64,000 nt of DNA from a bacterium (GCA_030647415.1 JAUSKB010000011.1:21858-85857), one strand, 5' to 3'. Shown: positions 8,721 to 52,586, numbered from the stretch's first letter. A program made the numbers and translations. Notes: generated by a model from the sequence alone, not told the origin.

Positions 8721-9141
8721 ATTTATTACGAACTGAATTCTATCGCAGGTTCTTCCGCCAGAGGCACCGTGCCTACCGGCGGGCAGGGATCCACCTTCGC
8801 GCTTGCAAACGACCTTTTGTTTTTTTGCGCGGGAAGGTTTCAAGAACCTGCGTTTATTGTTTTAGATAGTTATGCCGAATATTTCTTGATGCCTGAATGA
8901 CCTTTTTATAAGATCTGAAATTAGGGTTAGTTATCAAATCAATATCGTACGTACATTGTAGCATACCCACTATTCTTCACCTGTGGATATGTGCAAAATA
9001 TGCACATACTGCGCGAGCCACGCGATTATCCGCTGGCGCTGCTGGAACGCTGCGTCTGAAATAATAGGTAGTAATGGCAGGTGAGAGTGGCGAGTTCGCG
9101 AAGGCGGGCCCGACTCGCATACAGGCGAGGCAGGGTGTAGG

Positions 9142-39456: not shown

Positions 39457-40416
39457 TCAAACACGCTTCATGTCTTCCTCGACCATCATGCGCACCAGAT
39501 CGGCAAAGCCGGCCTTCGGCCGCCACCCGAGGGCGGTTCGGATCTTTGTTGAGTCTGCGCGCCACTCGTGCGCTTCGATCGGGCGGAAGAACGACTGGTC
39601 TATCACCACGTATTTTTCCCAGTCGAGGCCCGCGAACGCGAACGCGGCTTCAACGAATTCGCGAATGGTGTGCGTTTCCCCCGTTCCGACCACATAGTCG
39701 TCCGCAACAGGGGCCTGAAGCATGAGCCACATCGCCTCAACATAGTCGCCGGCAAATCCCCAGTCTCGCCGCGAATCCAGATTTCCGAGACGGAGCTCTT
39801 TTTCTGTCCCTGCTTTTATCTTTGCAATCGTCGTCGTGATCTTTCGTGTCACAAAGTTAGCCCCTCTCCTCGGAGATTCGTGACTGAACATTATGCCCGA
39901 GCACGCAAAGAGGCCGTGCGCTTCGCGATAAAGCTTCGTCAGATAGAAACTCGCGATCTTCGAAACGCCGTAGGGCGACGTCGGGTTATAGGGTGTGTTC
40001 TCGTTCTGCGGAGACGACGTGATCTTTCCGAAACAATCCGCGCTGCTGGAAAAATAAAAATGCGCTTTCGGAGCAGATTCTTTGAGCGCGGCGAGAAAGT
40101 AGTGCGTGCTTGAGATATTTGTGGTGAATGTCCCAAATTCGTCCTGAAATGACTCGGGGATGCTTGAGACCGCCGCAAGGTGATAAACCTCGTCGGGCAT
40201 TATCTCTTCCACGAGGCGCCGCACGGTTGGATGGTCCGTGACGTCGCCTGTATGCAGAACGAGGCTCTTGTTCCCGAGAAGGTGCCGGATACGCCAAAGA
40301 TCTTTTTCGTCGGGGCTCTTCCTCTCCACGCCGTGTACCTCGTATCCTTTGGAAAGCAGAAGTTCGGTGAGGTAGGAGCCGTCCTGACCCGCAACACCCG
40401 TAATAAGTGCCCTCAT
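39457..40416 (-). CDS. gmd: GDP-mannose 4,6-dehydratase.
   Basis: LITGVAGQDGSYLTELLL, YGVSK and GIMFSHESPRRG. Confidence 0.9.
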   Translation of the reverse strand: MRALITGVAGQDGSYLTELLLSKGYEVHGVERKSPDEKDLWRIRHLLGNKSLVLHTGDVTDHPTVRRLVEEIMPDEVYHLAAVSSIPESFQDEFGTFTTNISSTHYFLAALKESAPKAHFYFSSSADCFGKITSSPQNENTPYNPTSPYGVSKIASFYLTKLYREAHGLFACSGIMFSHESPRRGANFVTRKITTTIAKIKAGTEKELRLGNLDSRRDWGFAGDYVEAMWLMLQAPVADDYVVGTGETHTIREFVEAAFAFAGLDWEKYVVIDQSFFRPIEAHEWRADSTKIRTALGWRPKAGFADLVRMMVEEDMKRV

Positions 40417-40545: not shown

Positions 40546-41265
40546 ATGGAGAAGGATGTTTTTTTGAAGCGTTTGGATGCGTTTCTTATCCCCCATTTCA
40601 CACCGCCGAACGTCGCGGGCGGACATGACTGGGCGCACGTATGCGATGTGGTAGCCCTAGGACCAAAAATCGCTGCGTACCTCACGTTCGATTTGGATGA
40701 ATTCGCAGTGTTGGCACGCCTCCATAATGTGGATAGGTCCCCAAGTCTTTTGGGGGGAACCAGCGAAGAAGAACGCATGAAACAACTTTTAGCAGACAGT
40801 CCCTTCGATAATGCTGCGCGGGCTCGCATCATCAATGCGGCACTGCGCCACAGCCAGAAGGACATCCAGCCGGACGACTCCAACCTTTTAATCGCCCTCA
40901 TGGACGCCGATAAGCTCGTACGTTTCCAGCCCTCCTGGCTTTTGGGAGTAGGAGCGTTCGGGTTCACGCTCCATCTTCCCCTGTTTCTGCCCACAAGACC
41001 TTTCGGGTTCATGTCCACAAAACCAAAGGATCGCTTTTCGATCTGGATAGAGTTCATGAGTGTGCTCGAGTGGGTGGGGATGCTCTCATGTGATGCGGCG
41101 CGCGCGATGATCGACAAACGGTACCTCCGGTTGCGCATAGAGTTCCTTCGGTTATGGGGGGAGGAGATAGCCGCACAGACCGGCGTAGAAAACACGTCAG
41201 AGGACGACATTAAGAAATCGCTCGGCCGTTACTACGGGTGGACACTGGAGCACGCCGGACTGTGA
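40546..41265 (+). CDS. HD-domain (metal-dependent phosphohydrolase) protein, hypothetical.
   Basis: The GHDWAHV...D pattern. It is the only plus-strand gene in a minus-strand run. Confidence 0.45.
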   Translation: MEKDVFLKRLDAFLIPHFTPPNVAGGHDWAHVCDVVALGPKIAAYLTFDLDEFAVLARLHNVDRSPSLLGGTSEEERMKQLLADSPFDNAARARIINAALRHSQKDIQPDDSNLLIALMDADKLVRFQPSWLLGVGAFGFTLHLPLFLPTRPFGFMSTKPKDRFSIWIEFMSVLEWVGMLSCDAARAMIDKRYLRLRIEFLRLWGEEIAAQTGVENTSEDDIKKSLGRYYGWTLEHAGL

Positions 41266-41426: not shown

Positions 41427-42725
41427 TTATTGGAGATCTTCTCCACCAATAATCTTAAATTCCGGCATCGGCACGATGAATTTGCCACCCGCTTTTAGGT
41501 AGTCAGCCTCCCGCTTTAAAAATTCAGGCAAGAAGTGCCACGCGAGGATGAGAACGTAATCGGGTTTTTTATTTCGAAACTCCTCCTCGGAAATAATTGG
41601 TATCATCGTCCCGACGGTCTTTGTGCCCCACTTGTCCGGATTCCTATCAGCAATAGCCGTGACAAGATCCGGTGTAAGTCCGAAGAACTGCAGTGTGGTA
41701 TTGCCTTTGGTAGAGGCGGCATAGGCAAATACCGTTTTGCCGGCAGCAACCTCCTTTTTAATCGAGGTGATGGTCATCTCTTTAAGCTCCAAAACCCGGC
41801 GGACAAACTCCTCGTATATCCTCTTATCATCGAGCCCGAGCGCTTTCTCCTCTCTACGGAACGCTTGTACCCGCTCTGATGCCCCCGGCTGTAGTCGTAG
41901 CGACTTCCCCATCCCCACCTTGCGGACGTAGACTCGAATACTTCCCTCATTTACATGCTCCCGCATTTCGGCATCAATTACCTCCAAGCCGTGCCGCTTC
42001 AGTAGGTTCTCGAGCGAGAGCAGGGAATAATACTCGAGGTGCTCGTGGCAAATGCCGTCGAACGCGTTCCGCTTCAGGAAGGAGGGTAGGTACATCATCT
42101 GCACGACAAGCAGGCCGTCGTCATCCATGCACTTCACGATGTCGCCAACGAACATGTTTGGGTCGTCCAGGTCATAAAACATTGCGATTGCGGTAACGAT
42201 TTTCGCTTTCGCGTTCCCGAACTTCGCATGTAATGCGGAGAAACTGAAAAAATCAGTAAATACGTGCGTGATACCCTCGAGTCCATATTTTTCCGCAAGA
42301 GCTCGCGCTGGCTCAAATCCTATTCGATTCAAACCTTTTCCCCCATAAGCCCGGAGCAGTGTGCCGTCATTCGAACCAATATCGATAATGAAATCGCCGG
42401 AGGAGAGCGGCACGATGGCCTCCACCTTCTTCACAATCCCGACGAGCTCGTCGGTCATGCTCTTGTTGATGCCCGAACGGTACCAGTAGTTCCGATACAT
42501 CTCTTCGGGGTCAACGGAGTGTTTGAGCTGGAGCAACCCACACCCACCGTCCTTCTCATTGCACAACACGAGCTCCAGGGGAGCTTTTACCGCATTTTTC
42601 TCCTGTGCTTTCGCGTCGGCAAAGAAGTTTGAAACGTAGAGATCTCCCAGCGAGAGGATCGGGGTCAGATTGGCGGACCTGCACACACGACATTTTGTGA
42701 TCTCCTTGTAAAGTGGATTCGACAT
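41427..42725 (-). CDS. NDP-hexose C-methyltransferase family (TylC3/NovU-like).
   Basis: An N-terminal Zn-ribbon CRVCRS...LSLGD, a SAM-MT core IIDIGSNDG, and a C-terminal C-MT domain. ATG at 42725. Confidence 0.7.
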   Translation of the reverse strand: MSNPLYKEITKCRVCRSANLTPILSLGDLYVSNFFADAKAQEKNAVKAPLELVLCNEKDGGCGLLQLKHSVDPEEMYRNYWYRSGINKSMTDELVGIVKKVEAIVPLSSGDFIIDIGSNDGTLLRAYGGKGLNRIGFEPARALAEKYGLEGITHVFTDFFSFSALHAKFGNAKAKIVTAIAMFYDLDDPNMFVGDIVKCMDDDGLLVVQMMYLPSFLKRNAFDGICHEHLEYYSLLSLENLLKRHGLEVIDAEMREHVNEGSIRVYVRKVGMGKSLRLQPGASERVQAFRREEKALGLDDKRIYEEFVRRVLELKEMTITSIKKEVAAGKTVFAYAASTKGNTTLQFFGLTPDLVTAIADRNPDKWGTKTVGTMIPIISEEEFRNKKPDYVLILAWHFLPEFLKREADYLKAGGKFIVPMPEFKIIGGEDLQ

Positions 42726-42744
42726 ATAGCTAGGGTATGCTATC

Positions 42745-43677
42745 TTATCCCGAAAAATTTGAGTACGGGTTCGGAATGGTGACCGATGGGAGCGCCCGGA
42801 GTAGCTCATCGACGCCCTGGCTCAGGGCGTATTCGGTTTCGAACCCGCGGGCCCGTATTTTCGCATACGAGACCGCATAGTCGCGCTTGTCCGGGTCCTC
42901 GCCTACGTCGGCGAAGTGAACATAGAAGCGTGGATACTGGCGCTGAATTTCCTTCACCATTTCCTCCTTTGTGTGATTCAACGATTCATGCCCAACGTTG
43001 AAGATGTTGTTCTTCAATGTGCTGAAATTCTCGACGGCGAACAAAAGCGCCCGGGCCATATCGCGCACGTGGATGAAGGTCCTCCGCACGTCTTTTTGGT
43101 ACACAATGAGGCTCCCGCTTGTCACCGCCTTGTGGCAGAAGTCATTCACGAGGAGATCAAGGCGCATACGCGGTGAAACGCCGAACCCGGTCGCGAACCG
43201 ATACACCACCACATCGCCCTTATCCAAGAAATCTTTTTCCGCATCGAGTTTCGTCTTTGCATAGAGCGAGAGGGGGTTGGTCACGGTCTCCTCGGTGCAG
43301 ACCCCATTCACCTTTCCGTAATTGCTTCCCGTCGAGGAGAATATCAGGGGCTTTTTACCGCGAAGGCGGTTCAGAAGCTTGCTCGCGTCAGAGTTTACGG
43401 TCGTCGCGAGCTGGGGATTCACGCGGCATGCCGGCTCCCCCACGATACCCGCGAGGTGCACGATGCAGTCCGCCTCATCCACGAGCGGCTTCAATACTTT
43501 TTCGTCCCGTATATCGCCGTAGGTGAATGAAAAAATCTTATTCGAAAAATACAGGAGGAGTGTCGTCTGATTGAAAAGCAGATTGTCGACGACGCGAACC
43601 GAGTGCCCCTTCTCTAAGAGCAGTGGGACCAAGAGCGACCCAATGTACCCTGCGCCACCAGTGATGAGAACTTTCAT
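42745..43677 (-). CDS. NAD-dependent epimerase/reductase (SDR), a probable GDP-4-keto-6-deoxyhexose reductase or epimerase.
   Basis: MKVLITGGAGYIGS and YAKTK. It lies next to gmd and the C-MT. Confidence 0.8.
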   Translation of the reverse strand: MKVLITGGAGYIGSLLVPLLLEKGHSVRVVDNLLFNQTTLLLYFSNKIFSFTYGDIRDEKVLKPLVDEADCIVHLAGIVGEPACRVNPQLATTVNSDASKLLNRLRGKKPLIFSSTGSNYGKVNGVCTEETVTNPLSLYAKTKLDAEKDFLDKGDVVVYRFATGFGVSPRMRLDLLVNDFCHKAVTSGSLIVYQKDVRRTFIHVRDMARALLFAVENFSTLKNNIFNVGHESLNHTKEEMVKEIQRQYPRFYVHFADVGEDPDKRDYAVSYAKIRARGFETEYALSQGVDELLRALPSVTIPNPYSNFSG

Positions 43678-43709: not shown

Positions 43710-44297
43710 GTGAAAAAAGTTTACCATACAAGAAAGACGCGTGTAAAGAGGTATGGCACAGAACTACCCACGCGCTACTACGAGAACAAGCGCCACCGCA
43801 TAAAACCGCTCTTCCTTTCCCCTGGGGAGTATGCCCGTGCGATCCGATCGTTCGTGGTCGTCTGTGTTGATGCGCTCATCGTGAACCGCTCAAAAAGGAC
43901 GGTGTTCCTTGCGAAACGGCAGGCAAAACCGGCGCAAGGAATATGGTGGTACATTGGGGGGCGCGTGCTTGCGGGGGAAACATTCGAACGATCAATCGTC
44001 CGGTGCTTCGAACGAGAGACCTCTCTCTCTGTCCCGATGATCAGGTTCGAACCCGCGAACGCACAGGATTTTTTTTGGGGCATGCGGCAACAGCGCCCAC
44101 AGAACGCCGGCCTGCACAGTCTCGGTTTTGTATTCTCACTCGAACTGACCGAACCGGAACGGCGGGCGGTTGCGCGTTCTCTTGACCCGCATGAATACCA
44201 TGTGAAATCCGGCCTGCGAGAATTTTCCCGCCGCGAGCTCGTGCGGGAGAATGTCCATCCCGCGGTCATCGAGACATACGATCGCATCTTTAGCTAG
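43710..44297 (+). CDS. Putative Nudix hydrolase, GDP-sugar hydrolase-like.
   Basis: A Nudix-box-like segment GGRVLAGETFERSIVRCFERETS. The match is partial. Confidence 0.45.
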   Translation: MKKVYHTRKTRVKRYGTELPTRYYENKRHRIKPLFLSPGEYARAIRSFVVVCVDALIVNRSKRTVFLAKRQAKPAQGIWWYIGGRVLAGETFERSIVRCFERETSLSVPMIRFEPANAQDFFWGMRQQRPQNAGLHSLGFVFSLELTEPERRAVARSLDPHEYHVKSGLREFSRRELVRENVHPAVIETYDRIFS

Positions 44298-44421
44298 TAG
44301 ACCAGAGATTGGCTGCTACGGCCTTGATGCCGTTTTTTGATACTTGACAAAATATTTTATTTGGGCAATCATTAAAATAGAACAAAAACAAAACAGAATT
44401 TGCCAACAATAGGAGGCGTTA

Positions 44422-44976
44422 ATGAAACTGGTCATGATTTATGGACCACCGGCAGTCGGTAAGCTCACTGTCGCAAAAGCGCTACAGGAAGCAACTGGAT
44501 TCAGGCTTCTGCACAATCATTTGTTTACGGATATCTGTGATGCTGTTTTCGAAAAATTCGGCACGCAGGCACGTACGGAACTCAATCTTCAGCTCCGGAC
44601 CGATGTTATTAGAGCGACCGCAAAAGACGGGGCTCTCGGGATGATCTTCACGTTCTCCTACTACGCCGGCCCATTACGCGAAGCAGCAGATCACGCGGTG
44701 CGAACCTATATCCGCGTGATAAAAGAGCTGCAGGGCGAGATTTATTTCGTTAAGCTCTCGTGCGATATGCCTGAACTCGAAAAACGCGTCAAGAATTCTT
44801 CGCGTGCCGGGACGCGGAAGATCACGGACATAGAGAAACTGCGACGAGTGCTCCAGGAAGAGCGCCCCGCCGAAATACCCTTGCAGATCGCGGAAAGCTA
44901 CACGATCGACAATACCCACCTCAGTCCGAAGGTAGTTGCGACCATGATCAAAGACTATACCATTCGCCCCCAGTAA
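44422..44976 (+). CDS. P-loop NTPase, a small-molecule kinase-like protein (AAA_33-like), with a deviant Walker A motif.
   Basis: IYGPPAVGKLTV, and an AGGAGG RBS 7 nt upstream. Confidence 0.55.
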   Translation: MKLVMIYGPPAVGKLTVAKALQEATGFRLLHNHLFTDICDAVFEKFGTQARTELNLQLRTDVIRATAKDGALGMIFTFSYYAGPLREAADHAVRTYIRVIKELQGEIYFVKLSCDMPELEKRVKNSSRAGTRKITDIEKLRRVLQEERPAEIPLQIAESYTIDNTHLSPKVVATMIKDYTIRPQ

Positions 44977-45036
44977 GTGGGGGCATTTTTATTCCGAGAA
45001 AAAAGCAATACAATTAAATACAAGAGAATCGAGGAT

Positions 45037-45588
45037 ATGAAAAAAATAGTTTTGGTTGATATGGACGGACCTCTCGTCGACTTTGAAAGCGGTTTTTTGG
45101 CATCATGGCGGAAAACATTCCCGAGCGAATTCTTTCTACCGGTGGAACAAAGAACGACGCGATACGTGAATCAGGAATACCCGGCCCGCCTTAACGAGAA
45201 GATCGAGTCGGTCAAGAGCGCTGAGGGGTTTTTCGTGGGTCTTCCTCCCCTCGAAGCCGGTATCAATGCTGTACGAGAGATGGGCGCGCTCGGGTTCCGA
45301 GTATTCGTCTGCACAACGGCTATATACAACAGCAAGACGTGTTTAGTTGAAAAGAAATATTGGCTTGAAAAATACCTCGGACCCGACTTTGCAAAAAACG
45401 CGATCTTCACAAAAGATAAAACGGTGATAAAAGGACAGTACCTTATTGACGACGCACTTGAAATAACCGGCGAAGTGACCCCGGAATGGGAACATGTCCT
45501 TTATGATCAGCCCTTCAACAGGACTATAACTGATCGCCCGCGGTTAAAAATCGACTGGTCGAATTGGAAGGAGGTGATCACTTCCTAG
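45037..45588 (+). CDS. HAD-superfamily 5'(3')-deoxyribonucleotidase-like (NT5C family) phosphatase.
   Basis: MKKIVLVDMDGPLVDF. The ATG at 45037 was verified. Confidence 0.65.
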   Translation: MKKIVLVDMDGPLVDFESGFLASWRKTFPSEFFLPVEQRTTRYVNQEYPARLNEKIESVKSAEGFFVGLPPLEAGINAVREMGALGFRVFVCTTAIYNSKTCLVEKKYWLEKYLGPDFAKNAIFTKDKTVIKGQYLIDDALEITGEVTPEWEHVLYDQPFNRTITDRPRLKIDWSNWKEVITS

Positions 45589-46304
45589 CGATCCTCCTTG
45601 GCATTGATACGCTTCTCGAGTTCCGTTCTTATAAACTCAACAATAGTCCCCGGCGACAATTCAATCTTATGTTCAAATTCTTCTTCCTCGGATTCGGCGA
45701 GTTCTTTTTGAAACTCCTTCAAATTTTTTCCTCCATAGATACCCCGATATGATTCGGAATACGCTTTGAAAAAAGGTTCTTTCTCAAGTTCACGCCAGCG
45801 ATCCTTCACTTCGACATACTCGGAACCGAGTGTGATATGGTCCATAAAGTGCACAATTTTTTCATTCCGAGAACGCCCTGCGATGTATTCAGGATCGGCG
45901 CTCACGGGCATGTTAGCATGCGCGACCCGGATGAATTCTTCCGAAAAACCATACTCGCGCAATAGACGGTCATCCTCCTGTACGGTTTTGGTAACACCTT
46001 TTTCTCCGCCGTGCTCCCGGATCGCCTCGACCTCACGCCGCTTATACCAATCATGCAGAAATGTCGCGAGGACGACCGTATCACGATCTGCGTTCAGGTG
46101 CTCCGCCAAAATATCCGCGCCAACTGCGGCAACGAGACAATGTTCTGCTACGTTCCGCCACTCTTTATTATCCTCTCCCAACACGCCGCCTTTTTCCAAG
46201 ATTCTCATCGCACTCAAATGTTTCAGCGCAAATTGGGAAAAATATTCAGTCTTTTTCTTTTCCTTGTCGATTTTTTCTGCGATTAGTTTTTCCATATCGT
46301 TCAC
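45585..46304 (-). CDS. HD-domain phosphohydrolase-like protein, hypothetical.
   Basis: H...LHDWYK (an HD motif). Glu-rich C-terminus. Confidence 0.5.
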   Translation of the reverse strand: MNDMEKLIAEKIDKEKKKTEYFSQFALKHLSAMRILEKGGVLGEDNKEWRNVAEHCLVAAVGADILAEHLNADRDTVVLATFLHDWYKRREVEAIREHGGEKGVTKTVQEDDRLLREYGFSEEFIRVAHANMPVSADPEYIAGRSRNEKIVHFMDHITLGSEYVEVKDRWRELEKEPFFKAYSESYRGIYGGKNLKEFQKELAESEEEEFEHKIELSPGTIVEFIRTELEKRINAKEDR

Positions 46305-46309
46305 AAATA

Positions 46310-47179
46310 TTATATGCTGTCGCGAATATGTCGAATAAAATCGCGCGCTAATGCTTCGGTTGAAGCGATTATAATGGGTAGTTCCTCATGTTGACCGAAT
46401 TCAAAATATTTTTTATCTTGTAAACTCTCTCCATTAAGGTCCACCATAACTCCGCCCGCTTCGGCAACAAAGCCATAGCCTATCGCGGGTTCCAGATTAT
46501 TCTTTGCCGTGCACGTCAAAATCAAATCAACCTTGCCGGAAGCTAAATCGGAAAAATAAGTTGCGTAAGCACGCGGATCCGTTATTTTGAATTGCCGGAG
46601 TTTTTCTGAAAAAACCCGGTGGCACACATCAAAATGTCCGTTCATATATATTCGCGTTCTTTCGCTTAAAATATTTTGCTCGGAAGCGTGAAGAGGAATT
46701 CTGCCTCCTTGCGCATCCAAAAGAAAACTGCCAACGCCTTTTTCGGTGACAAAAAGTTTTCCGGTTGAATGTTCCATAATACCGCTTGTCACGTAATCGC
46801 CATATACGGGGTCGATATTGGAAAATATACCAAGCATCGTTCCGTAACGTTCCTTTCCTCTTCCTGCCTGGTAACGATTGGAACCGTCAAGGCCATCGAG
46901 TATGCCGAGATAGACGGGACTCGGAACGATTTCCACTTTTCCATGTTCCTCCGAAATAACTCTTATTGGGATCCCGCTTTCTTTCAGAAAATCGAGTACT
47001 GCCTCTTCGGCCTCAATATCGATACGCAAGGCTGTTTCTCCAAATTGGTTTTTCTGCACCAACTCTTCACCCCTCGAACCGAGAGCTTCGTGTATTGTAT
47101 ATGCCCGATGTAATGCGGATTGTAAAATCCGCTCAAAATCGTGAACCGTTTCAAATTGTTTTTCTTTCATCTCACTCAC
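46310..47179 (-). CDS. Inositol monophosphatase / CysQ-family phosphatase.
   Basis: ILDGLDGS ... GFVAEAGGVMVD, the IMPase motifs. Confidence 0.75.
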   Translation of the reverse strand: MSEMKEKQFETVHDFERILQSALHRAYTIHEALGSRGEELVQKNQFGETALRIDIEAEEAVLDFLKESGIPIRVISEEHGKVEIVPSPVYLGILDGLDGSNRYQAGRGKERYGTMLGIFSNIDPVYGDYVTSGIMEHSTGKLFVTEKGVGSFLLDAQGGRIPLHASEQNILSERTRIYMNGHFDVCHRVFSEKLRQFKITDPRAYATYFSDLASGKVDLILTCTAKNNLEPAIGYGFVAEAGGVMVDLNGESLQDKKYFEFGQHEELPIIIASTEALARDFIRHIRDSI

Positions 47180-48383
47180 GCAATACTACTATATCATTAA
47201 AAATCAAATCGAGTGCCTCCTTTATTCCTTCTATATCCTTTTCGTGCGAGTAGTGCGCGATGATTTCTTTTGATCTTTTCCCGAAGTTTTCCACGCGCTC
47301 GCGACTCTCTACCAACTTCCTTATGCACTCGGCGAGCTCATCAATATTACCAAGCCGGAATATAAAACCGTTCTCATTTCTATGCACTAGATCCGATCCG
47401 CACCCCACGATATCGGAAACCACGACCGGGAGTCCGAAGCACATCGCTTCATTCACGACCAGTCCCCATGTCTCGCCGATTCCCGAAGGGAGCACAAACA
47501 CATCCGCCACGGCGTAGCATTCCGGGAGTTCTGACTGGTTTTTGAAACCCGCGAACCGGACGTTCTTTAAACCATGATCTTGAGCGTATGCTTCGAGTGT
47601 TTGTCTGAGTTCTCCATCGCCAACGAAGAGTAGGGAGGGGGTAATGGGTAAAGAGTAATGAGTAATGAGTAATTCGTAGGCCTGAAGCAGATCGAGGGGG
47701 CGTTTTTTTCCAATAAGCTTTCCGACGAAGAGAACGAGCGGATGATCCGGCAAAACGCCGAGTTTCTTTTTGAGTTCCGGTTTCTTTCCCACAAACGTCT
47801 TGGCTACTTCAATGTACCGATCGTTTTCGACGGCGTATGGGACAAAGAACAGCTTCTTTTTAGGCACACCATAATACTCATAGAATTTTCTATTCTCCTC
47901 GCCAATGTAGAGAAATCCCGAAACGCGGCGGAACAGCATGCCAAGAATAATTTTTTTTACCGCCCGTTTTCGCCCGCTCTTCAGGGATTCCTGATTCATC
48001 GGATTCTCGCCATGGAGAAGAACTGGGGTCCTGCGAAGAAAGGCGGTTGCAAATGCAAGCCAGTTTGTGAGCGAATTCCACCCATAGACGATTACCGCGT
48101 CATACTTCCCCTTCCACAAAGCCGGAATGATCCCGAGGTTTATCTGGCCAAGGAAGCTCGGACCTGGTTTTAATGAAAAATTTTTCGGGAATAAGTGGCG
48201 ATACCCCTCCGTAAGAATAATGTCCCACTCGATCGCGCACCCGAACTCCGGATCGAACATCTTTTTCGCACCGAAATCCCAGCAAAAGTAGACCGTGAGA
48301 TCGATGCCGGGCATGACCGCGAACTTTCGGAAAAGCGGCGCCTGGTATTGGATCACGTGCGAAGTAAGAATCGCGATTTTCAT
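47172..48383 (-). CDS. GT4 glycosyltransferase containing a heptanucleotide repeat tract.
   Basis: GETWGLVVNEAMCFGLPVV. A tract of five heptamers, G[GA]GTAA[TA] (three perfect GAGTAAT), lies at 47638-47672. Confidence 0.85.
   Translation of the reverse strand: MKIAILTSHVIQYQAPLFRKFAVMPGIDLTVYFCWDFGAKKMFDPEFGCAIEWDIILTEGYRHLFPKNFSLKPGPSFLGQINLGIIPALWKGKYDAVIVYGWNSLTNWLAFATAFLRRTPVLLHGENPMNQESLKSGRKRAVKKIILGMLFRRVSGFLYIGEENRKFYEYYGVPKKKLFFVPYAVENDRYIEVAKTFVGKKPELKKKLGVLPDHPLVLFVGKLIGKKRPLDLLQAYELLITHYSLPITPSLLFVGDGELRQTLEAYAQDHGLKNVRFAGFKNQSELPECYAVADVFVLPSGIGETWGLVVNEAMCFGLPVVVSDIVGCGSDLVHRNENGFIFRLGNIDELAECIRKLVESRERVENFGKRSKEIIAHYSHEKDIEGIKEALDLIFNDIVVLRE
47638..47672. repeat. Heptanucleotide tandem repeat (GGGTAAT GGGTAAA GAGTAAT GAGTAAT GAGTAAT) inside the GT4 CDS.
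   Basis: Read directly. The unit is not a multiple of 3. Confidence 0.6.
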
Positions 48384-49441
48384 GATGCGTATGCGGCCTC
48401 AATGAATTCCCGGATCCGCGCCTTACTCTTCTCGAGCCCGTACACTTCGAGTGTCCTCCGGCGGAGCGCCTCACCTTTCAAAAGCTTCGGCGCCGTACCC
48501 GATACAATCGAGATGATTGCACCCGCGATCGCACCGCGGTCATCCGGATCGACGAGAATACCTAACTCCCCGTTCGCGAACGCTTCATCACCGCACTCGC
48601 GGTTTCCACCCACGATAGGCGTTCCGCACGCGAGCGCTTCGAGCAATACAATTGCGGGAAACCCCTCCCCCTTCGAGGGAAGTACAAATACATCAGCAAG
48701 ATTGTAATACTCAACGAGCGCCTGATCTGGTACCGCGCCGGTAATCGTCACATGGTTTCTCAAATGCAAACGGTTGATCAGCGCCTCAACGCGCGGGCGG
48801 TCGTCACCGTCGCCCACGATGACGTACTTGATGTCGGGGATCCGCTCCCGAACCCTCGGCAAACTTTCGATGACCCGATCATATCCCTTTCCCCCTATCT
48901 CGAGCGATGAAAGGCGCGCGACGGTACAGATCACTTTTTCGCTTCCGATGCCAAGCGTCCGCTTCAATGCCTCCGGCTTCCCTGTAATATGGAACCGTTC
49001 GCCATCGACACTGTTCGGCAAAATAAACGATCGCCGTTCTACTTCGGGAAACTGCCGAAGAATATTTCCCATCGTCCACCGGAAAGGAGCGACAACGATA
49101 CGGGCGGTCCGCACGGCCCGACGCTTCAGGGGATCCGTGATGCGGACCGCTTCAACGCCATGAAGCTCGACGGTAAAAGGGATCCGCAAGAATACATGGA
49201 GGAAGTAGGCGACAACCGCAAAATTGATGTGGATACAGACTATGAGCGTCGGACGGAACACGAGCGCATTCCATACGAACGAGAGTGTGAAGTGAAGTTT
49301 CGCAAGCAAGCCACCGCGTTTCCGCTCGACGACCTTCAGTAGAATGCCCGCTTCCTGGATAACGCCACTGATCTTTTTCGCGACATTTTGGATGCCGCCG
49401 ATTGTCTCCATATCCGGAACGGCAAATAAAATCTTTTTCAT
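48380..49441 (-). CDS. GT4 glycosyltransferase.
   Basis: KGEGFPAIVLLEALACGTPIV. Confidence 0.85.
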   Translation of the reverse strand: MKKILFAVPDMETIGGIQNVAKKISGVIQEAGILLKVVERKRGGLLAKLHFTLSFVWNALVFRPTLIVCIHINFAVVAYFLHVFLRIPFTVELHGVEAVRITDPLKRRAVRTARIVVAPFRWTMGNILRQFPEVERRSFILPNSVDGERFHITGKPEALKRTLGIGSEKVICTVARLSSLEIGGKGYDRVIESLPRVRERIPDIKYVIVGDGDDRPRVEALINRLHLRNHVTITGAVPDQALVEYYNLADVFVLPSKGEGFPAIVLLEALACGTPIVGGNRECGDEAFANGELGILVDPDDRGAIAGAIISIVSGTAPKLLKGEALRRRTLEVYGLEKSKARIREFIEAAYAS

Positions 49442-49460: not shown

Positions 49461-50381
49461 TTACCGCTTCGAGAGCGTTGACACGAGAAATACGCCCATG
49501 TGAAGCGCGCCGGTAAGGAACCGGTTCAGCGAGAGCGGGAAGTGCCGAAGCGCCACATCTTTGAGGCGGCCTCCAGGCAAAAGAATTAGGTCGGCGCATG
49601 GACCGCGCACTTCGATCTTTTTTTCGAGAAAGAGGGGGGCCATGAGCGCGCGCCATTCGGAAATGGTGTAGTACCGCGCGAGCGCGCCGTCGGTGTTCAT
49701 TTGGATTGACTTACTCAAGGAACGAAATTTGAATAACTTTCCAGAAATAATACCGCGGAGCAGTCCTGTCACGTAGTAGTTCCACCATCCACGGTGATAA
49801 ACCATCAGAACCGCGGTTCCACCGGGACGAAGTATTCGATGTATCTCATCAAGAATCCTCTTCGTGTTCGCGGAGTGATGTATGACGCCCCAACTCCAGA
49901 CGAAGTCGAAGCTTCCATCGCGAAATTCAAGCTTTTCCGCATCCATCCTCTTAATATCCGCCGTGAGCCCGAAAACACTCATCCTCTTTTTCGTCGCCTG
50001 AACCGCATAATCCGTGAGATCAATACCCGCGAAGGTTTTTGCGTGGGACGCCAAAAGTTGTGCGTGACTCCCGTTCCCCACCCCGATTTCCAGAACATCC
50101 TTCGTTCCCAGATCTGAAAAGTGAATGAACTCGTTGAATGGTAATTCGGAGTCGCGCCGCAAATACTCTCGAGCGTTCGAAAAAAAACTCTTGTCAATTT
50201 CAATAAAAAACTCTTTTGTAAACTCACGGTACTGATTCGCGCGATTCCAATCGTACCGCATAGGGTTACGCTCCCACCAGCTTCGGTTTGCGTGCTGCCA
50301 TTCAGAAGCTTGCGTAGGTGAAACCGGCAAGGATGTTGGGGCTGTAAAATCCTTTACATTCCCCTCATTAAAATTCTTCAT
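49461..50381 (-). CDS. Class I SAM-dependent methyltransferase.
   Basis: VLEIGVGNGSHA ... LRPGGTAVL. The internal ATG (MKNFNEG) is preferred. The track N-terminal extension is Arg/Ser-rich junk. Confidence 0.7.
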   Translation of the reverse strand: MKNFNEGNVKDFTAPTSLPVSPTQASEWQHANRSWWERNPMRYDWNRANQYREFTKEFFIEIDKSFFSNAREYLRRDSELPFNEFIHFSDLGTKDVLEIGVGNGSHAQLLASHAKTFAGIDLTDYAVQATKKRMSVFGLTADIKRMDAEKLEFRDGSFDFVWSWGVIHHSANTKRILDEIHRILRPGGTAVLMVYHRGWWNYYVTGLLRGIISGKLFKFRSLSKSIQMNTDGALARYYTISEWRALMAPLFLEKKIEVRGPCADLILLPGGRLKDVALRHFPLSLNRFLTGALHMGVFLVSTLSKR

Positions 50382-50439
50382 GCTCTTGATGTTATTATAC
50401 CGCAAACTGCCGAATACCCCGACTGAAACATAGGCATAA

Positions 50440-52323
50440 TCACTGCCATGTGCTTGCAATAGTAGCCGCCCACAGGCGCGACCAGTGGAGATCTCCTGCC
50501 TTGAAGCGGCGGAGGAGTTCCTTGCCATGGGCAGTCGCGAGCAACGGGCGAAACGCGTTATGCTCACCCACCACCGACGCGAGCCACTCGGCGAACGGGA
50601 AGGTGAATCCCATCTTCGGCCGCTGAAACACCTCCCGGGGCACGATATCCCTGACCGCCTCGACAAGGAGGGGCTTATTCACCCCGCCGCGCGGGAACTT
50701 GAGGTCTGCCGGGAGCGAGGCGAGGTACTCGACGAGCGGGTGGTCGAGGAAGGGCACCCGGACCTCGACCGAGTGGTGCATCGCCATGAAGTCGGTGTCT
50801 TTGAGGAGCTGGGATTCGAGATAGCTCTTCAATTCAAGATACGAGTGCGTGTCGGCTGGGTGAAGCGATTCGAGCACCTGGAGCTCGTGGCCTCCGGGAA
50901 CGAGCGATGCCGCGATATCCTCGACCACCGCCAACACCTCCGCTTCGTGCACGCCGAGAAGGGTCGCCGCTTCGCGCGGCGTGAAGAGCCCCCGGACCGT
51001 GAGATACTCGCCGATGAGGTCGCCCCGCATGAGGTACGATGCCTTAGGCGTCCGGCGGCCGAGCATCGCATGAGACGTCGCGAGCGACCGGAGCGCCGCG
51101 GGGAGGTGTGACACGAACCGGAGCGCTCTCGCCTTTCGGAAAGCAGGGTAGCCGAAGAATATCTCATCGCTCCCGAGGCCCGAGAGGACTGCCTTTAATC
51201 CTGCGGCCTTCGCTGCGCCGGCGATGAAGAAGGTGTTCACGCCGTCCACCGTCGGCTGGTCCATCGCTCCGAGCGCCTCGTCGAGCTCACCCATAAAATC
51301 GGCACGGCGGATGCGCGACTCCCGATGGTCGGTCTTCAGCCACCCCGCGACGCGGTCCTGGTAGAGCTTCTCGGAATATGCCGGCTCGTCAAAATTAACC
51401 GAAAGTGTGGTAACCGGTTTCGCGCGACCATGCGCCGCAAGTGCCGTAATCGCTGACGAATCAAGCCCGCCCGAAAGAAAGATGCCGAGCGGCGCGTCGG
51501 AGACGAGGTGGCTTCCGACCGCATCCGAGAGCAGCCGCCGCACCTCATGGGTCGCTTCGGCGAACGAGACGTCCCGTTTCCTCGTGAATGCCTCGAGCGG
51601 GTCGTAGTACCGAACGGTACGGATGGTGCCATCCACTCGCCGCTCCAGGTACGACCCCGACGGCACCGCAGAGACAGCGCGGAGCGTCGTCCAAGGCGAA
51701 GGCACCGACCCGGTGAGGAGAAACCCAATGAGCGCACGGGGGTCCCGTTCCGCCGGCACGAGACCGCTTTCGGCGAGCGCGCCGACGGTCGATGCGAACA
51801 CCACCTGATTGGGCGTTGCCGCGTAGTAGAGGGGTTTGATGCCATACCGGTCCCGAACGAGGTAGAGCATCTGATTTCGAGAATCCCACAGCGCAAATGC
51901 AAACATGCCACGGAGCTTCGAGAATGAAGCGACTCCTTCCCGCGCGAAGAGCGTGAGAATCACCTCCGTGTCGGTTTCCGTGTTGAATCGCTCACCGCGA
52001 GCCACGAGCTCCGCGCGAAGTTCGCGAAAATTGTATATCTCGCCGTTAAAGGTGATAGAAAGAATGCCCCCGGGAATCGAACGTTCCATGGGCTGATGGC
52101 CGGCGGAAGAGAGGTCGATGATGGAAAGCCGACGGTGCCCCAGCACCACTTCGCCTGTCCTGAGCGAAGCCGAAGGACCGCCGCCATTCGCAAGTGGATA
52201 GCTCGCAATCCCCTCGTCATCGGGTCCGCGCCGGACCTGCCGCGCGTTCATCGCCCGAACCGCGCGCTCAATCAATGCGCGGTCGCCCGCCCGAGTCGCT
52301 AGTATGCCGCTGATGCCGCACAT
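50440..52323 (-). CDS. asnB: Asparagine synthase (glutamine-hydrolysing) family amidotransferase.
   Basis: N-terminal MCGI (nucleophile Cys2), and SGGLDSS (PP-loop). Confidence 0.9.
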   Translation of the reverse strand: MCGISGILATRAGDRALIERAVRAMNARQVRRGPDDEGIASYPLANGGGPSASLRTGEVVLGHRRLSIIDLSSAGHQPMERSIPGGILSITFNGEIYNFRELRAELVARGERFNTETDTEVILTLFAREGVASFSKLRGMFAFALWDSRNQMLYLVRDRYGIKPLYYAATPNQVVFASTVGALAESGLVPAERDPRALIGFLLTGSVPSPWTTLRAVSAVPSGSYLERRVDGTIRTVRYYDPLEAFTRKRDVSFAEATHEVRRLLSDAVGSHLVSDAPLGIFLSGGLDSSAITALAAHGRAKPVTTLSVNFDEPAYSEKLYQDRVAGWLKTDHRESRIRRADFMGELDEALGAMDQPTVDGVNTFFIAGAAKAAGLKAVLSGLGSDEIFFGYPAFRKARALRFVSHLPAALRSLATSHAMLGRRTPKASYLMRGDLIGEYLTVRGLFTPREAATLLGVHEAEVLAVVEDIAASLVPGGHELQVLESLHPADTHSYLELKSYLESQLLKDTDFMAMHHSVEVRVPFLDHPLVEYLASLPADLKFPRGGVNKPLLVEAVRDIVPREVFQRPKMGFTFPFAEWLASVVGEHNAFRPLLATAHGKELLRRFKAGDLHWSRLWAATIASTWQ

Positions 52324-52586
52324 TTACCCTGTTAGAATTTTGCAGACATACTCGACTGATGAAAACAGATGTTTGTGTAGCAGGTCAGTGTCCAAAAATT
52401 TGAGTGTGTGCAAAATTCTAACAGGGTGAACCGCATTAGAGTTTTACACATAGACAGTTTCATAAAGATACGTCTTCTAAACCACAAACAATGTTTCATT
52501 CTTTTTCGAGTGTTTGTAAAACTCTAACAGGATAAACCACCGTTGAGTTTTGTACATCCCAGCGACATCTCTAACAGGGTGAATCC
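52324..52586. promoter_or_regulatory. Cluster of the same inverted and direct repeat motif seen at 9142-9267. It lies upstream of asnB.
   Basis: TTACCCTGTTAGAATTTTGCA (52324-44, reverse complement), TGCAAAATTCTAACAGGGTGAACC (52409-32), TGTTTGTAAAACTCTAACAGGATAAACC (52511-38), GACATCTCTAACAGGGTGAATCC (52564-86), and the reverse-complement partner TTAGAGTTTTACACA (52435-50). Confidence 0.5.

What the first reader, a model, noticed from the sequence alone, without database searches (positions are those of the whole stretch)
43710..47179. Unusual nucleotide-handling module (Nudix, deviant P-loop kinase, NT5C-like, HD, IMPase/CysQ-family) inside the glycan cluster
Five consecutive small enzymes that act on nucleotides or phosphates sit between the GDP-deoxyhexose genes and the GT4 genes. 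One of them has a deviant Walker A, GPPAVGKLT. Nudix hydrolases such as Gmm/NudD are known in GDP-fucose clusters. The kinase, NT5C, HD and IMPase combination is not a textbook sugar pathway. It could make or recycle a non-standard activated donor, for example a phospho- or nucleotide-modified sugar. It might also be a nucleotide-based defence module.
Basis: inference. Interest (0 to 1): 0.55.

Follow-up and report, generated by a model that had tools for sequence, protein, structure and literature searches.

The report
Accessory nucleotide enzymes in glycan cluster
Five small nucleotide- and phosphate-handling enzymes really do sit inside a large cell-surface sugar gene cluster; they look like optional helpers of GDP-sugar metabolism typical of ultra-small (CPR) bacteria, not a fixed module or a defence system, because a near-identical relative has deleted four of them.

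Summary
Five consecutive ORFs at 43710-47179 encode a Gmm-like Nudix, a P-loop kinase, a cdN/mdN-like 5'(3')-nucleotidase, an HD phosphohydrolase and an IMPase/FBPase-type phosphatase. They lie inside a ~45 kb glycan cluster that carries a GDP-heptose pathway, GMD, a C-methyltransferase, SDRs and GT4s.

GPPAVGKLT is not a decayed Walker A. YGPPAVGKLT is invariant in an uncharacterised kinase family found in at least 316 genomes.

The five genes are not one conserved module. They form at least three transcription units, and no other locus holds all of them.

Their nearest relatives, mostly Patescibacteria/DPANN, recur in NDP-sugar clusters:
- The HD family sits beside sugar-1-P nucleotidyltransferase, GMD-like dehydratase or C-methyltransferase in 14 of 19 informative loci.
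- One Patescibacteria operon holds IMPase, kinase and NT5C together with a GHMP kinase.

Contigs about 93% identical to the window lack 2,309 bp, bounded by a 10-bp repeat. The missing piece holds the kinase, NT5C, HD and the IMPase C-terminus. The flanking genes stay under purifying selection, so these four genes are accessory.

PADLOC gives no support for a defence role. The biochemical roles are inferred, not shown. Interest is moderate.

The parts
43710..44297 (+). Gmm-like Nudix hydrolase (195 aa). It is transcribed divergently from SDR 42745-43677.
   Evidence: PF00293 3e-8. The best NCBIfam hit is PRK15434 GDP-mannose mannosyl hydrolase, 6.6e-11, below its cutoff. The best PDB hit is 1rya GDPMH, 1.5e-8, residues 34-112 against 2-79, sharing GGRV..ET..R..E. 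The gene is retained at 91% amino-acid identity in the deletion variant L086, with dN/dS 0.30.
44318..44372 (+). Terminator-like hairpin (44318-44333 plus a T run), then a sigma-70-like promoter (TTGACA-17-AATCAT, 44344-44372) upstream of the kinase. An AGGAGG ribosome-binding site lies at 44411-44416.
   Evidence: Consensus scan and sequence. These are pattern matches only, not proof of function.
44349..44358 (.). Left copy of the 10-bp direct repeat AAAATATTTT that bounds the 2,309-bp segment absent from relatives.
   Evidence: blastn breakpoints and junction alignment.
44422..44976 (+). Small P-loop kinase (184 aa) of an uncharacterised family with an invariant YGPPAVGKLT loop.
   Evidence: Alignment A1 shows invariant Y7 G8 P9 P10 A11 G13 K14 L15, T77, R122 and R128; T16, N32, H33, N164 and T165 are conserved in at least 90% of sequences. 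The AF2 model has pLDDT 94.6. Foldseek matches shikimate, gluconate, adenylate, deoxyadenosine and APS kinases at TM 0.5-0.7 and 13-21% identity. The family is present in 316 genome stretches.
45037..45588 (+). cdN/mdN-like HAD 5'(3')-nucleotidase (183 aa from ATG 45037; the longest ORF starts at GTG 44977).
   Evidence: PF06941 9e-16. Human cytosolic and mitochondrial 5'(3')-deoxyribonucleotidases match at E 7e-41 over the full length. The DMDG motif is present. Positions equivalent to cdN F44 and Y65 are R and K. A 44%-identical homologue lies directly after the kinase gene in L015.
45585..46304 (-). HD-domain phosphohydrolase (236-239 aa) of a rare family. It is the last gene of the GT4b-GT4a-IMPase-HD operon and overlaps NT5C tail-to-tail by 4 nt.
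   Evidence: PF01966 2.5e-5. Only 19 cluster hits at 43-63% identity, and the few that carry a name are CPR. H55, H84-D85, H152 and D155 are invariant. The AF2 model has pLDDT 89. The fold is a generic HD fold; the nearest compact matches are YqeK/BH1327-type.
46310..47179 (-). IMPase/FBPase-superfamily phosphatase (286-289 aa). Its start overlaps the GT4a stop.
   Evidence: PF00459 7e-8. PRK12676 archaeal FBPase/IMPase 4e-18, below its cutoff. PDB MJ0109 2.6e-5. The subfamily has about 400 hits at 45-65% identity, and the named ones are mostly Patescibacteria/Nanoarchaeota. E77, E78, D95-G-L-D98-G99 and E230 are invariant.
46668..46677 (.). Right copy of the 10-bp repeat AAAATATTTT, inside the IMPase gene. 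It marks the other deletion breakpoint.
47172..49441 (-). GT4a (47172-48383) and GT4b (48380-49441). These glycosyltransferases are co-transcribed with IMPase and HD.
   Evidence: PF00534 1e-35 and 3e-34. The ORFs overlap. GT4a is only 70% identical to its L086 counterpart, while neighbouring genes are 93-97% identical.
40546..41265 (+). Extra HD-motif ORF (239 aa, GGHDWAH...DADKL) between GMD and the C-methyltransferase. It is a possible sixth nucleotide-handling gene.
   Evidence: No Pfam hit. PDB matches to HD hydrolases 2pq7, Lin1889 and YpgQ are faint, E 0.4-1. It is conserved in L086 at 93% amino-acid identity with dN/dS 0.12. It is not related to the HD family A3.

Best explanation
This is a patch of accessory enzymes of Patescibacteria/DPANN type. 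They service the nucleotide and phosphate side of GDP-sugar metabolism in a large surface-glycan cluster. They are not obligatory steps of the sugar pathway.

Shown:
- There are at least three transcription units: the Nudix alone; the kinase, followed on the same strand by NT5C (co-transcription unproven, because a hairpin overlaps the kinase stop); and IMPase-HD at the tail of the GT4b-GT4a operon.
- Catalytic motifs are intact in all five proteins.
- Relatives of each family recur in NDP-sugar clusters.
- Four of the five genes can be lost together.

Inferred roles:
- The Gmm-like Nudix trims the GDP-sugar pool.
- The HD enzyme elsewhere sits between a sugar-1-P nucleotidyltransferase and a GMD-like dehydratase. 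It probably hydrolyses a nucleotide (poly)phosphate by-product or product of that step, such as GDP/GTP-type species, Np4N or PPi.
- The NMP-kinase-like P-loop protein and the cdN-like nucleotidase probably act as a kinase/phosphatase pair on a nucleotide-like monophosphate, for example GMP released by glycan assembly.
- The IMPase/FBPase-type enzyme either makes sedoheptulose-7-P for the heptose branch or removes a sugar or nucleotide phosphate.

Together they would tune the supply and recycling of the activated donor rather than build it.
For: - Domain assignments and intact motifs.
- The cluster is GDP-sugar based. GmhB scores 166 bits against a 178-bit cutoff. HddA 1e-44 and GmhA 3e-28 are well below their cutoffs. 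There is a Man-1-P/HddC-like transferase. GMD (TIGR01472) scores 1e-107.
- HD family: of 19 informative loci, 14 have NDP-sugar or glycan genes within 3 kb (GMD-like 8, C-methyltransferase 5, nucleotidyltransferase 5). The nucleotidyltransferase-to-HD adjacency is seen directly in L090 and L091.
- Kinase: its closest relatives (38-51% identity) lie in sugar operons in L003, L006, L007, L015 and L020, with start/stop overlaps to SDR or RmlC-like genes. L006 also has an HD-domain gene directly after the kinase.
- L015 operon order: SDR, IMPase, RmlC-like, EEP phosphatase, SDR, kinase, NT5C, GHMP kinase.
- IMPase relatives lie next to a C-methyltransferase/SDR pair (L088) and next to GmhA/GmhB/HddC-like genes (L089).
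- The NT5C domain is fused to GT4, GT2-like or Nudix domains in other organisms.
- The accessory nature follows from the 2,309-bp deletion in L086 and L087. Flanking genes there have dN/dS 0.05-0.30.
Against: - No substrate is known for any of the four non-Nudix families. The fold searches are generic.
- The five genes do not co-occur elsewhere. No HD homologue appears in 82 kinase loci, and no kinase, NT5C or IMPase homologue appears in the 30 fetched HD loci (25 distinct).
- About 75 of 82 kinase loci show no glycan genes detectable by tblastn.
- An NT5C relative (L120) and an IMPase relative (L121) lie in non-glycan contexts.
- In the window, the HD gene is not next to the nucleotidyltransferase, which is 15 kb away.
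- The deletion may be recent. The IMPase remnant has dS 0.07. Tolerance over the long term is therefore not proven.
- L086 and L087 may come from the same sample.
Confidence: 0.45

Rival explanations
1. The genes form a biosynthetic side branch that follows 'kinase, then GT4, then phosphatase' logic. The same logic is established for sucrose-phosphate, glucosylglycerol-phosphate and mycothiol synthesis. The P-loop kinase would phosphorylate a small acceptor. GT4a would glycosylate the phospho-acceptor. IMPase and/or NT5C would then remove the phosphate. The 2.3-kb segment would therefore specify a distinct glycan decoration or glycoside, and the relatives would have switched it off.
For: - The IMPase start overlaps the GT4a stop, and HD follows 5 nt later.
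- NT5C domains are fused to GT4 or GT2-like glycosyltransferases in four GT4 and one GT2-like of the top 150 representatives.
- In the deletion variant, GT4a is only 70% identical, and its N-terminal (acceptor-side) half cannot be aligned at nucleotide level. Neighbouring genes are 93-97% identical.
- The window NT5C has R and K where cdN has the base-stacking F44 and Y65. This hints at an anionic, non-nucleoside substrate.
- The kinase fold is closest by TM-score to gluconate kinase, a sugar-acid kinase (1ko5, 0.69/0.73).
Against: - The GT4-NT5C fusions come from marine eukaryote transcriptomes, and their GT4 domains are only distantly related to GT4a and GT4b.
- The kinase family lacks the Asp general base that follows strand 2 in shikimate and gluconate kinases. 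It has an invariant N-H there, and its P-loop is of the NMP-kinase type (K-x-T) (plus the author's knowledge of these families).
- Kinase/NT5C and IMPase/HD are on opposite strands.
- The rest of the window looks like a Wzx/Wzy lipid-linked glycan pathway.
Confidence: 0.25
2. The genes are unrelated housekeeping genes for nucleotide salvage and phosphatase functions, typical of small-genome bacteria. They happen to be lodged in a recombination-prone glycan island and have no functional tie to the glycan.
For: - Most kinase-family loci (about 75 of 82) lack detectable glycan genes.
- P0021 lies among ribosomal and transcription genes.
- NT5C homologue P0224 lies beside DNA ligase, GatCA, MetK and MurD.
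- IMPase homologue P0104 abuts ribosomal proteins L10 and L12. P0143 lies in an MscL-IMPase-Nudix-HD_4 row.
- The IMPase-kinase adjacency in Micrarchaeota is not in a glycan context.
- Four of the genes are deleted in a close relative.
Against: - The HD family is tightly linked to NDP-sugar genes, in 14 of 19 loci.
- IMPase is translationally coupled to GT4a.
- In L015, L003 and L007 the kinase, NT5C and IMPase genes overlap sugar genes in single operons.
- The Nudix is of the GDP-sugar-specific Gmm type.
Confidence: 0.22
3. The genes form a nucleotide-based anti-phage defence or conflict module embedded in the glycan cluster.
For: There is only a weak PADLOC hit of the Nudix to PDC-S07 (1.7e-5). 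The GT4 genes give weak PF20706 'GT4-conflict' hits that fall far below their general GT4 scores.
Against: - The kinase, NT5C, HD and IMPase have no PADLOC hits.
- No nuclease, sensor or effector lies adjacent.
- The kinase has no phage homologues, and NT5C has only distant ones.
- Where relatives have a conserved context, it is biosynthetic sugar operons; the rest are housekeeping or uninformative.
Confidence: 0.03

Closest known systems
GDP-mannose mannosyl hydrolase Gmm/NudD/WcaH, in the E. coli colanic-acid and GDP-fucose clusters
   Same: Both are Nudix enzymes encoded inside a GDP-sugar cluster. The window protein shares the N-terminal half and the altered Nudix box (GGRV..ET..R....E) with PDB 1rya, E 1.5e-8.
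   Different: - The score is far below the NCBIfam cutoff, 42 bits against 146.
- The C-terminal half, which in GDPMH holds the catalytic His, does not align.
- There is a basic N-terminal extension of about 33 aa.
- Here the Nudix comes with four further phosphate enzymes, which Gmm clusters lack.
Mammalian 5'(3')-deoxyribonucleotidases cdN/mdN (PF06941)
   Same: The similarity is full-length, E 7e-41. The DMDG nucleophile motif, the GFF motif and the conserved Lys and Asp residues are shared.
   Different: - Two base-stacking positions (cdN F44 and Y65) are R and K in the window protein.
- The gene lies in a glycan cluster, directly after a P-loop kinase.
- The substrate is untested.
YqeK/BH1327-type HD hydrolases (Ap4A hydrolase, often linked or fused to NadD), and HD domains fused to nucleotidyltransferases (PRK07152, DVU_1551 family)
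   Same: Both have the HD fold with H...HD...H...D. The window HD gives weak NCBIfam hits to HD domains fused to nucleotidyltransferases. In CPR loci it sits immediately downstream of a sugar-1-P nucleotidyltransferase. The best compact structural matches are YqeK and BH1327.
   Different: - There is no significant sequence match to any solved structure.
- Foldseek gives only TM 0.4-0.5.
- The partner enzyme is a sugar-1-P nucleotidyltransferase plus GMD, not NadD.
NMP kinases (adenylate kinase P-loop GxPGxGKGT) and small-molecule P-loop kinases (shikimate, gluconate)
   Same: They share the fold (TM 0.6-0.7) and a P-loop with one residue between Lys and Thr, as in adenylate kinase. Two invariant Arg residues lie in the LID region.
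   Different: - No Pfam family reaches threshold.
- Identity to any solved kinase is 13-21%.
- The invariant YGPPAVGKLT and N32-H33 motifs define a separate, uncharacterised family.
Archaeal class IV FBPase/IMPase (MJ0109, AF2372)
   Same: This is the best NCBIfam and PDB match. The EE and DxxDG[ST] metal motifs are shared.
   Different: - The score is 65 bits against a cutoff of 264.
- The 'WD' motif is replaced by an invariant L-E.
- It forms its own subfamily whose named members are mostly Patescibacteria/DPANN.
- It is translationally coupled to a GT4 gene.

Membership tests
GDP-mannose mannosyl hydrolase (Gmm/NudD) | Sequence membership (NCBIfam PRK15434 cutoff) | tested here: not met
   42.2 bits against a cutoff of 146. 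Only profile positions 2-77 of 159 match.
GDP-mannose mannosyl hydrolase (Gmm/NudD) | Altered Nudix box shared with GDPMH (GGRV..ET..R..xxE) | tested here: met
   The alignment to 1rya shows GGRVLAGETFERSIVRCFERETSL against GGRVQKDETLEAAFERLTMAELGL.
GDP-mannose mannosyl hydrolase (Gmm/NudD) | C-terminal catalytic His (His124 in E. coli GDPMH, from the author's knowledge) | tested here: inconclusive
   The alignment stops at residue 112 of the query and 79 of the target. The C-terminal half is not alignable.
5'(3')-deoxyribonucleotidase NT5C (PF06941) | Pfam gathering threshold and full-length similarity to cdN/mdN | tested here: met
   58.7 bits against 24.8. E 7e-41 to 4l57 and 1mh9 over residues 25-202.
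5'(3')-deoxyribonucleotidase NT5C (PF06941) | HAD DxDG nucleophile and acid motif, plus the conserved Lys and Asp | tested here: met
   D10, D12, K112, K134 and D145 equivalents are present.
5'(3')-deoxyribonucleotidase NT5C (PF06941) | Aromatic base-stacking residues (cdN F18, F44, Y65) | tested here: not met
   F18 is kept. F44 is replaced by R and Y65 by K in the window protein. Most relatives keep aromatic residues at these positions.
NMP kinase / adenylate kinase | Family profile match (PF00406 or an NCBIfam Adk model) | tested here: not met
   Only a 15.9-bit P-loop-region hit to PRK00279 (cutoff 256). AAA_18 and AAA_33 are below their gathering scores.
NMP kinase / adenylate kinase | P-loop of the GxPGxGK-x-T type and LID arginines | tested here: inconclusive
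   GPPAVGKLT, R122 and R128 are invariant. The fold matches adenylate kinases about as well as shikimate and gluconate kinases.
HD superfamily (PF01966) | Pfam threshold and H...HD...D metal ligands | tested here: met
YqeK Ap4A hydrolase family | Sequence or close structural membership | tested here: not met
   No PDB sequence hit at E<=1. Foldseek E 3e-3, TM 0.40-0.48.
IMPase/FBPase superfamily (PF00459) | Pfam threshold and metal-binding motifs (EE, DxxDG[ST]) | tested here: met
   32.7 bits against 27. E77, E78, D95, D98, G99 and S100 are conserved.
CysQ 3'(2'),5'-bisphosphate nucleotidase | Equivalog score (TIGR01331) | tested here: not met
   24.7 bits against a cutoff of 228.8.
Known anti-phage defence systems (PADLOC) | Match of the component proteins to a defence-system model | tested here: not met
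   Four of five proteins have no hit. The Nudix has only a weak PDC-S07 hit.
GDP-D-glycero-alpha-D-manno-heptose pathway (context of the cluster) | Presence of the GmhA, HddA, GmhB and HddC set | tested here: inconclusive
   The best hits are to exactly these families: GmhB 7.8e-49, HddA 1.3e-44, GmhA 3.3e-28, and HddC/Man-1-P guanylyltransferase 1e-20 to 2e-26. All are below the equivalog cutoffs.

The most novel reading that the evidence does not exclude
The rare HD family, and possibly the YGPPAVGKLT kinase family, would be previously unrecognised dedicated enzymes of nucleotide-sugar biosynthesis in Patescibacteria. The HD enzyme would act on the product of the sugar-1-P nucleotidyltransferase or the substrate of the GMD-like dehydratase. 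The kinase, NT5C and IMPase set would create and remove a phosphate on the donor or acceptor used by GT4a. The 2.3-kb segment would then encode a switchable, phosphate-dependent glycan modification route with no characterised precedent.
Probability: 0.15. Interest if true: 0.65.

Novelty: new variant of a known kind. Interest (0 to 1): 0.42.

Why it matters
Glycan clusters are known to carry one nucleotide-sugar 'housekeeping' hydrolase, Gmm. Here four further uncharacterised enzyme families join it:
- a rare HD family tightly linked to nucleotidyltransferase, GMD-like dehydratase and C-methyltransferase cassettes;
- a kinase family in 300 or more genomes with an invariant unusual P-loop;
- a cdN-like nucleotidase;
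- an IMPase subfamily whose named members are mostly from CPR bacteria and DPANN archaea.

If these enzymes tune or recycle GDP-sugar nucleotides, that would show how organisms widely reported to have little nucleotide biosynthesis (the author's knowledge, not tested here) sustain costly surface glycosylation. It would also give testable functions to several 'hypothetical' families. The natural 2.3-kb deletion supplies a ready-made comparison. The finding is not a new kind of system, and no chemistry is demonstrated.

Tried and rejected
- **Defence module.** PADLOC gave nothing useful. PHROGs and phage tblastn gave only distant NT5C hits and no kinase hits. Rejected.
- **Decayed or inactive Walker A.** Rejected, because the motif is invariant across the family.
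- **CysQ/PAPS-type 3'-phosphonucleotide cycle** (APS-kinase-like kinase plus CysQ). The kinase is not APS-kinase-like by sequence; APS kinases are only mid-list fold matches. The IMPase is not a CysQ. Not excluded, but unsupported.
- **Split T4 Pnkp-like RNA-repair pair** (kinase followed by HAD). There is only a weak phrog_415 hit and a weak PSTK profile hit. The sugar-operon embedding argues against it.
- **Paralogy of the two HD-type ORFs.** hhalign probability is about 1%. Rejected.
- **Homology between the HD gene next to the Yanofskybacteria kinase and the window HD.** Similarity is at motif level only.
- **Insertion versus deletion for the 2.3-kb segment.** Insertion is rejected. The breakpoint truncates an IMPase whose full length is conserved family-wide.
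- **Literature.** Searches for HD, nucleotidyltransferase and C-methyl-sugar links, and for CPR glycan nucleotide enzymes, found nothing relevant.
- **RNA genes.** The tRNA scan of the window found none.
- **Taxonomy.** It could not be established. NCBI labels the MAG only 'bacterium'.

Full report
**Observation**

- 43710-44297 (+) is a Nudix protein (PF00293, 34 bits against a cutoff of 21).
- 44422-44976 (+) is a 184-aa P-loop protein carrying GPPAVGKLT. It has only sub-threshold AAA_18 and AAA_33 hits.
- 44977-45588 (+) is an NT5C-family HAD phosphatase (PF06941, 9e-16).
- 45585-46304 (-) is an HD protein (PF01966, 25 bits against 22).
- 46310-47179 (-) is an IMPase-family protein (PF00459, 32.7 bits against 27).

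From the sequence, the NT5C gene most likely starts at ATG 45037. That start gives MKKIVLVDMDG and is preceded by GAGGA.

**Context**

Nearly the whole window is glycan biosynthesis.
- There is a phosphoglycosyl transferase, two Wzx-type flippases, a Wzy_C/TPR protein, and many GT2, GT4 and methyltransferase genes.
- At 30.1-33.1 kb there is a block whose best matches are GmhA, HddA, GmhB and HddC, which is the GDP-heptose route.
- There is a clear GDP-mannose 4,6-dehydratase (TIGR01472, 1e-107) at 39457-40416.
- There is a TylC3-type C-methyltransferase at 41427-42809 and an SDR at 42745-43677.

The glycan block at about 26-54 kb has lower G+C (mostly 0.45-0.54) than the flanking DNA (0.55-0.62). 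The source is an NCBI MAG labelled only 'bacterium' (protein MDO8469656.1, contig 122 kb) and a Logan assembly of SRR13727527.

**Transcription layout**

The five genes are not one operon.
- The Nudix is divergent from the SDR. A terminator-like hairpin follows it (44318-44333).
- A promoter-like site (TTGACA-17-AATCAT, 44344-44372) and an AGGAGG ribosome-binding site precede the kinase. A hairpin overlaps the kinase stop codon, and NT5C follows.
- On the other strand, GT4b, GT4a, IMPase and HD overlap or abut one another (48380/48383, 47172/47179, 46304/46310).
- HD and NT5C overlap tail-to-tail by 4 nt.

The promoter and terminator calls are pattern matches only.

**P-loop kinase**

- An alignment of 38 homologues shows that Y-G-P-P-A-x-G-K-L is invariant. 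T77, R122 and R128 are also invariant, and T16, N32-H33 and N164-T165 are nearly so. The 'deviant' Walker A is therefore a family signature.
- With one residue between Lys and Thr, the loop resembles the adenylate-kinase loop GxPGxGKGT. This comparison rests on my own knowledge of that family.
- The AF2 model is confident (pLDDT 94.6).
- It matches only generic small-molecule and NMP kinases at 13-21% identity. These include shikimate, gluconate (best TM 0.69/0.73), deoxyadenosine, adenylate and APS kinases.
- Profile search of PDB sequences gave only weak hits. The best full-length hit is PSTK at 1.5e-4.
- The family occurs in at least 316 genome stretches of Patescibacteria, DPANN archaea, Acidobacteriota, Deinococcota and others.
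- Of 82 loci examined, only the closest relatives (L003, L006, L007, L015, L020; 38-50% identity) lie among homologues of the window's sugar genes. In those loci the kinase is embedded in sugar operons. Examples are RmlC-like, kinase, GHMP kinase in L003, and GMD then kinase in L007.
- In the Yanofskybacteria locus, a 190-aa HD-domain protein of a different HD family follows the kinase.
- In six Micrarchaeota loci, an IMPase-family gene lies convergent and adjacent to the kinase gene.

**The L015 operon**

The most informative relative is a Patescibacteria operon, L015. Its gene order on one strand, with overlapping genes, is:
1. SDR
2. IMPase
3. RmlC-like epimerase
4. EEP phosphatase
5. SDR
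6. P-loop kinase
7. NT5C (44% identical to the window's)
8. GHMP kinase
9. GT2-like protein

A GmhA-like SIS gene and a 54%-identical GMD lie nearby. Three of the five families therefore do co-occur in a sugar operon elsewhere.

**NT5C**

- It is strikingly similar to human cytosolic and mitochondrial 5'(3')-deoxyribonucleotidases (E 7e-41, full length). All HAD catalytic residues are present.
- Two of the three base-stacking residues of cdN (F44 and Y65) are R and K in the window protein. Most relatives keep aromatic residues there.
- Among the 150 best representatives of 2,543 relatives, the NT5C domain is fused to GT4 (4 proteins), to a GT2-like domain (1) and to a Nudix domain (1).
- The GT4 fusions come from marine eukaryote transcriptomes. 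Their GT4 domains are only distantly related to GT4a and GT4b.
- One 47%-identical prokaryotic homologue lies in a plain housekeeping neighbourhood.

**HD**

- This is a rare family, with 19 clusters among 5.8 billion proteins at 43-63% identity. The few hits that carry a source name are CPR.
- H55, H84-D85, H152 and D155 are invariant.
- No solved structure matches by sequence.
- Its neighbourhood is the strongest association found in this study. There are 25 distinct loci, of which 19 are informative. Fourteen of those have NDP-sugar or glycan genes within 3 kb: a GMD-like dehydratase in 8, a homologue of the window's C-methyltransferase (43-65% identity) in 5, and a sugar-1-P nucleotidyltransferase in 5.
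- In L090 and L091 the order is nucleotidyltransferase then HD, directly adjacent. That nucleotidyltransferase is of the Man-1-P guanylyltransferase / RmlA-long type.
- Weak NCBIfam hits of the HD protein go to HD domains fused to nucleotidyltransferases, namely NadD-HD and the DVU_1551 family.

**IMPase**

- The subfamily has about 400 hits at 45-65% identity. The named ones are mostly Patescibacteria and Nanoarchaeota.
- The metal ligands are conserved (E77, E78, D95, D98). An invariant L-E replaces the usual W-D motif.
- It is closest to archaeal class IV FBPase/IMPase (MJ0109), not to CysQ.
- Four contexts were examined.
  - L088: C-methyltransferase (58% identical to the window's), SDR, a 169-aa protein, then IMPase.
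  - L089: IMPase at the edge of a cluster with GmhA (71%), GmhB and HddC-like genes, next to ribosomal protein genes.
  - L121/L122: MscL, IMPase, Nudix, HD_4, with no glycan genes.
  - L086/L087: the close-relative contigs described in the next section.

**Nudix**

The best matches are E. coli GDP-mannose mannosyl hydrolase (1rya, 1.5e-8) and PRK15434. These cover the N-terminal half and include the modified Nudix box. The score is far below the family cutoff, and the C-terminal half does not align.

**Natural deletion**

- Contigs L086 and L087 are groundwater metagenome assemblies, possibly from the same sample. They are 82-97% (mostly about 90-95%) identical in nucleotide sequence to window 34.1-56.4 kb in the blocks that align. 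They lack window 44359-46667 (2,309 bp).
- The junction is a single copy of AAAATATTTT. In the window this sequence is a direct repeat at 44349-44358 and 46668-46677.
- The missing piece holds the kinase, NT5C, HD and the C-terminal ~119 residues of IMPase.
- The IMPase family is full-length everywhere else. The window therefore shows the ancestral state, and the relatives carry a microhomology deletion.
- Flanking genes in the two lineages have dN/dS 0.05-0.30 at dS 0.07-0.41. The cluster, including the Nudix and the extra HD-like ORF, is therefore still constrained.
- GT4a is a mosaic. It is 70% identical at the amino-acid level, and its N-terminal half cannot be aligned at nucleotide level. 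Neighbouring genes are 93-97% identical.

**Interpretation**

The evidence fits accessory, dispensable enzymes tied to GDP-sugar metabolism better than it fits a fixed module, random housekeeping passengers or a defence system.

I commit, at about 0.45, to a nucleotide and phosphate servicing role:
- The Nudix trims GDP-sugars.
- HD hydrolyses a nucleotide (poly)phosphate species at the nucleotidyltransferase/dehydratase step.
- The kinase and NT5C act as a monophosphate kinase/phosphatase pair.
- IMPase either supplies sedoheptulose-7-P or removes another phosphate.

All of these substrate assignments are inference.

The main rival, at about 0.25, is a kinase-GT4-phosphatase side branch that makes a distinct decoration. 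Three observations favour it: the GT4a-IMPase coupling, the NT5C-glycosyltransferase fusions, and the GT4a mosaicism in the deletion variant. Pure hitch-hiking stands at about 0.22. Defence stands at about 0.03, since PADLOC was negative.

**Novelty and score**

A Gmm-type hydrolase in a GDP-sugar cluster is textbook. Two things are new. The first is the accretion of four further uncharacterised families. The second is the strong link between the HD family and the nucleotidyltransferase/GMD/C-methyltransferase cassette in CPR bacteria. I rate this a new variant of a known kind, with moderate interest (0.42).

Noticed in passing
window 44349-44358 and 46668-46677; L086 10494-10503: A 10-bp direct repeat, AAAATATTTT, bounds a 2,309-bp segment. 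The segment is cleanly missing from two contigs that are about 93% identical to the window. This looks like a microhomology deletion that truncates IMPase to 185 aa.
   Followed up: yes
window 40546-41265 (+): A 239-aa ORF with HD-like motifs (GGHDWAH, LHNVDR, DADKL) lies alone on the + strand between GMD and the C-methyltransferase. It has no Pfam hit and only faint PDB similarity to HD hydrolases. It is conserved in L086 with dN/dS 0.12. In CPR cassettes, the other HD family occupies roughly this position.
   Followed up: partly
window 47556-48268 (GT4a N-terminal half), 49696-50577 (methyltransferase) and 50578-52341 (AsnB): Divergence from L086 is mosaic. GT4a and the methyltransferase are 70% identical at the amino-acid level and AsnB is 83%, while neighbouring genes are 93-97%. 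This suggests recombination within the cluster, next to the deletion.
   Followed up: partly
L030, L044, L050, L058, L070, L072 (Micrarchaeota); L039: In six Micrarchaeota loci, an IMPase-family gene lies immediately convergent to the YGPPAVGKLT kinase gene. In L039 it lies 1.7 kb away. This is a recurrent kinase-IMPase pairing outside glycan clusters.
   Followed up: partly
L121 5936-8388; L122 2507-4959: A 51%-identical IMPase homologue is followed on the same strand by a Nudix (weak NDPSase_N hit) and an HD_4 protein. The locus has no glycan genes. The IMPase-Nudix-HD triad therefore recurs at the level of domain class.
   Followed up: no
proteins P0255, P0291, P0332, P0354 (GT4-NT5C), P0245 (NT5C-GT2-like), P0226 (Nudix-NT5C): cdN-like nucleotidase domains are fused to glycosyltransferase or Nudix domains. 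The GT4 fusions come from marine eukaryote transcriptomes (MMETSP/MERC).
   Followed up: partly
L040, L043, L056, L059-L062, L078, L081, L083: In 10 loci (most from Acidobacteriota-type MAGs by record title), a conserved 140-186-aa protein lies at or within about 3 kb downstream of the kinase gene. The one member scanned (L040) has no Pfam hit.
   Followed up: no
window 3834-8843 (-): A 1,669-aa protein with Big_5, fn3 and purple-acid-phosphatase-N-like domains lies upstream of the glycan genes. It is probably a large surface protein.
   Followed up: no
window 52587-53900 (-): An AAA_14/DUF4143 ATPase gene sits in the lowest-G+C stretch of the window (0.445), between AsnB and the Wzy_C/TPR gene. 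It is also present in L086.
   Followed up: no
L003 10663-12461; L015 1240-2298: CPR sugar operons that carry the kinase also encode E1/transketolase-like subunits (L003) or a DmpG/HMGL-like aldolase (L015). This hints at branched-chain or chain-extended sugars.
   Followed up: no
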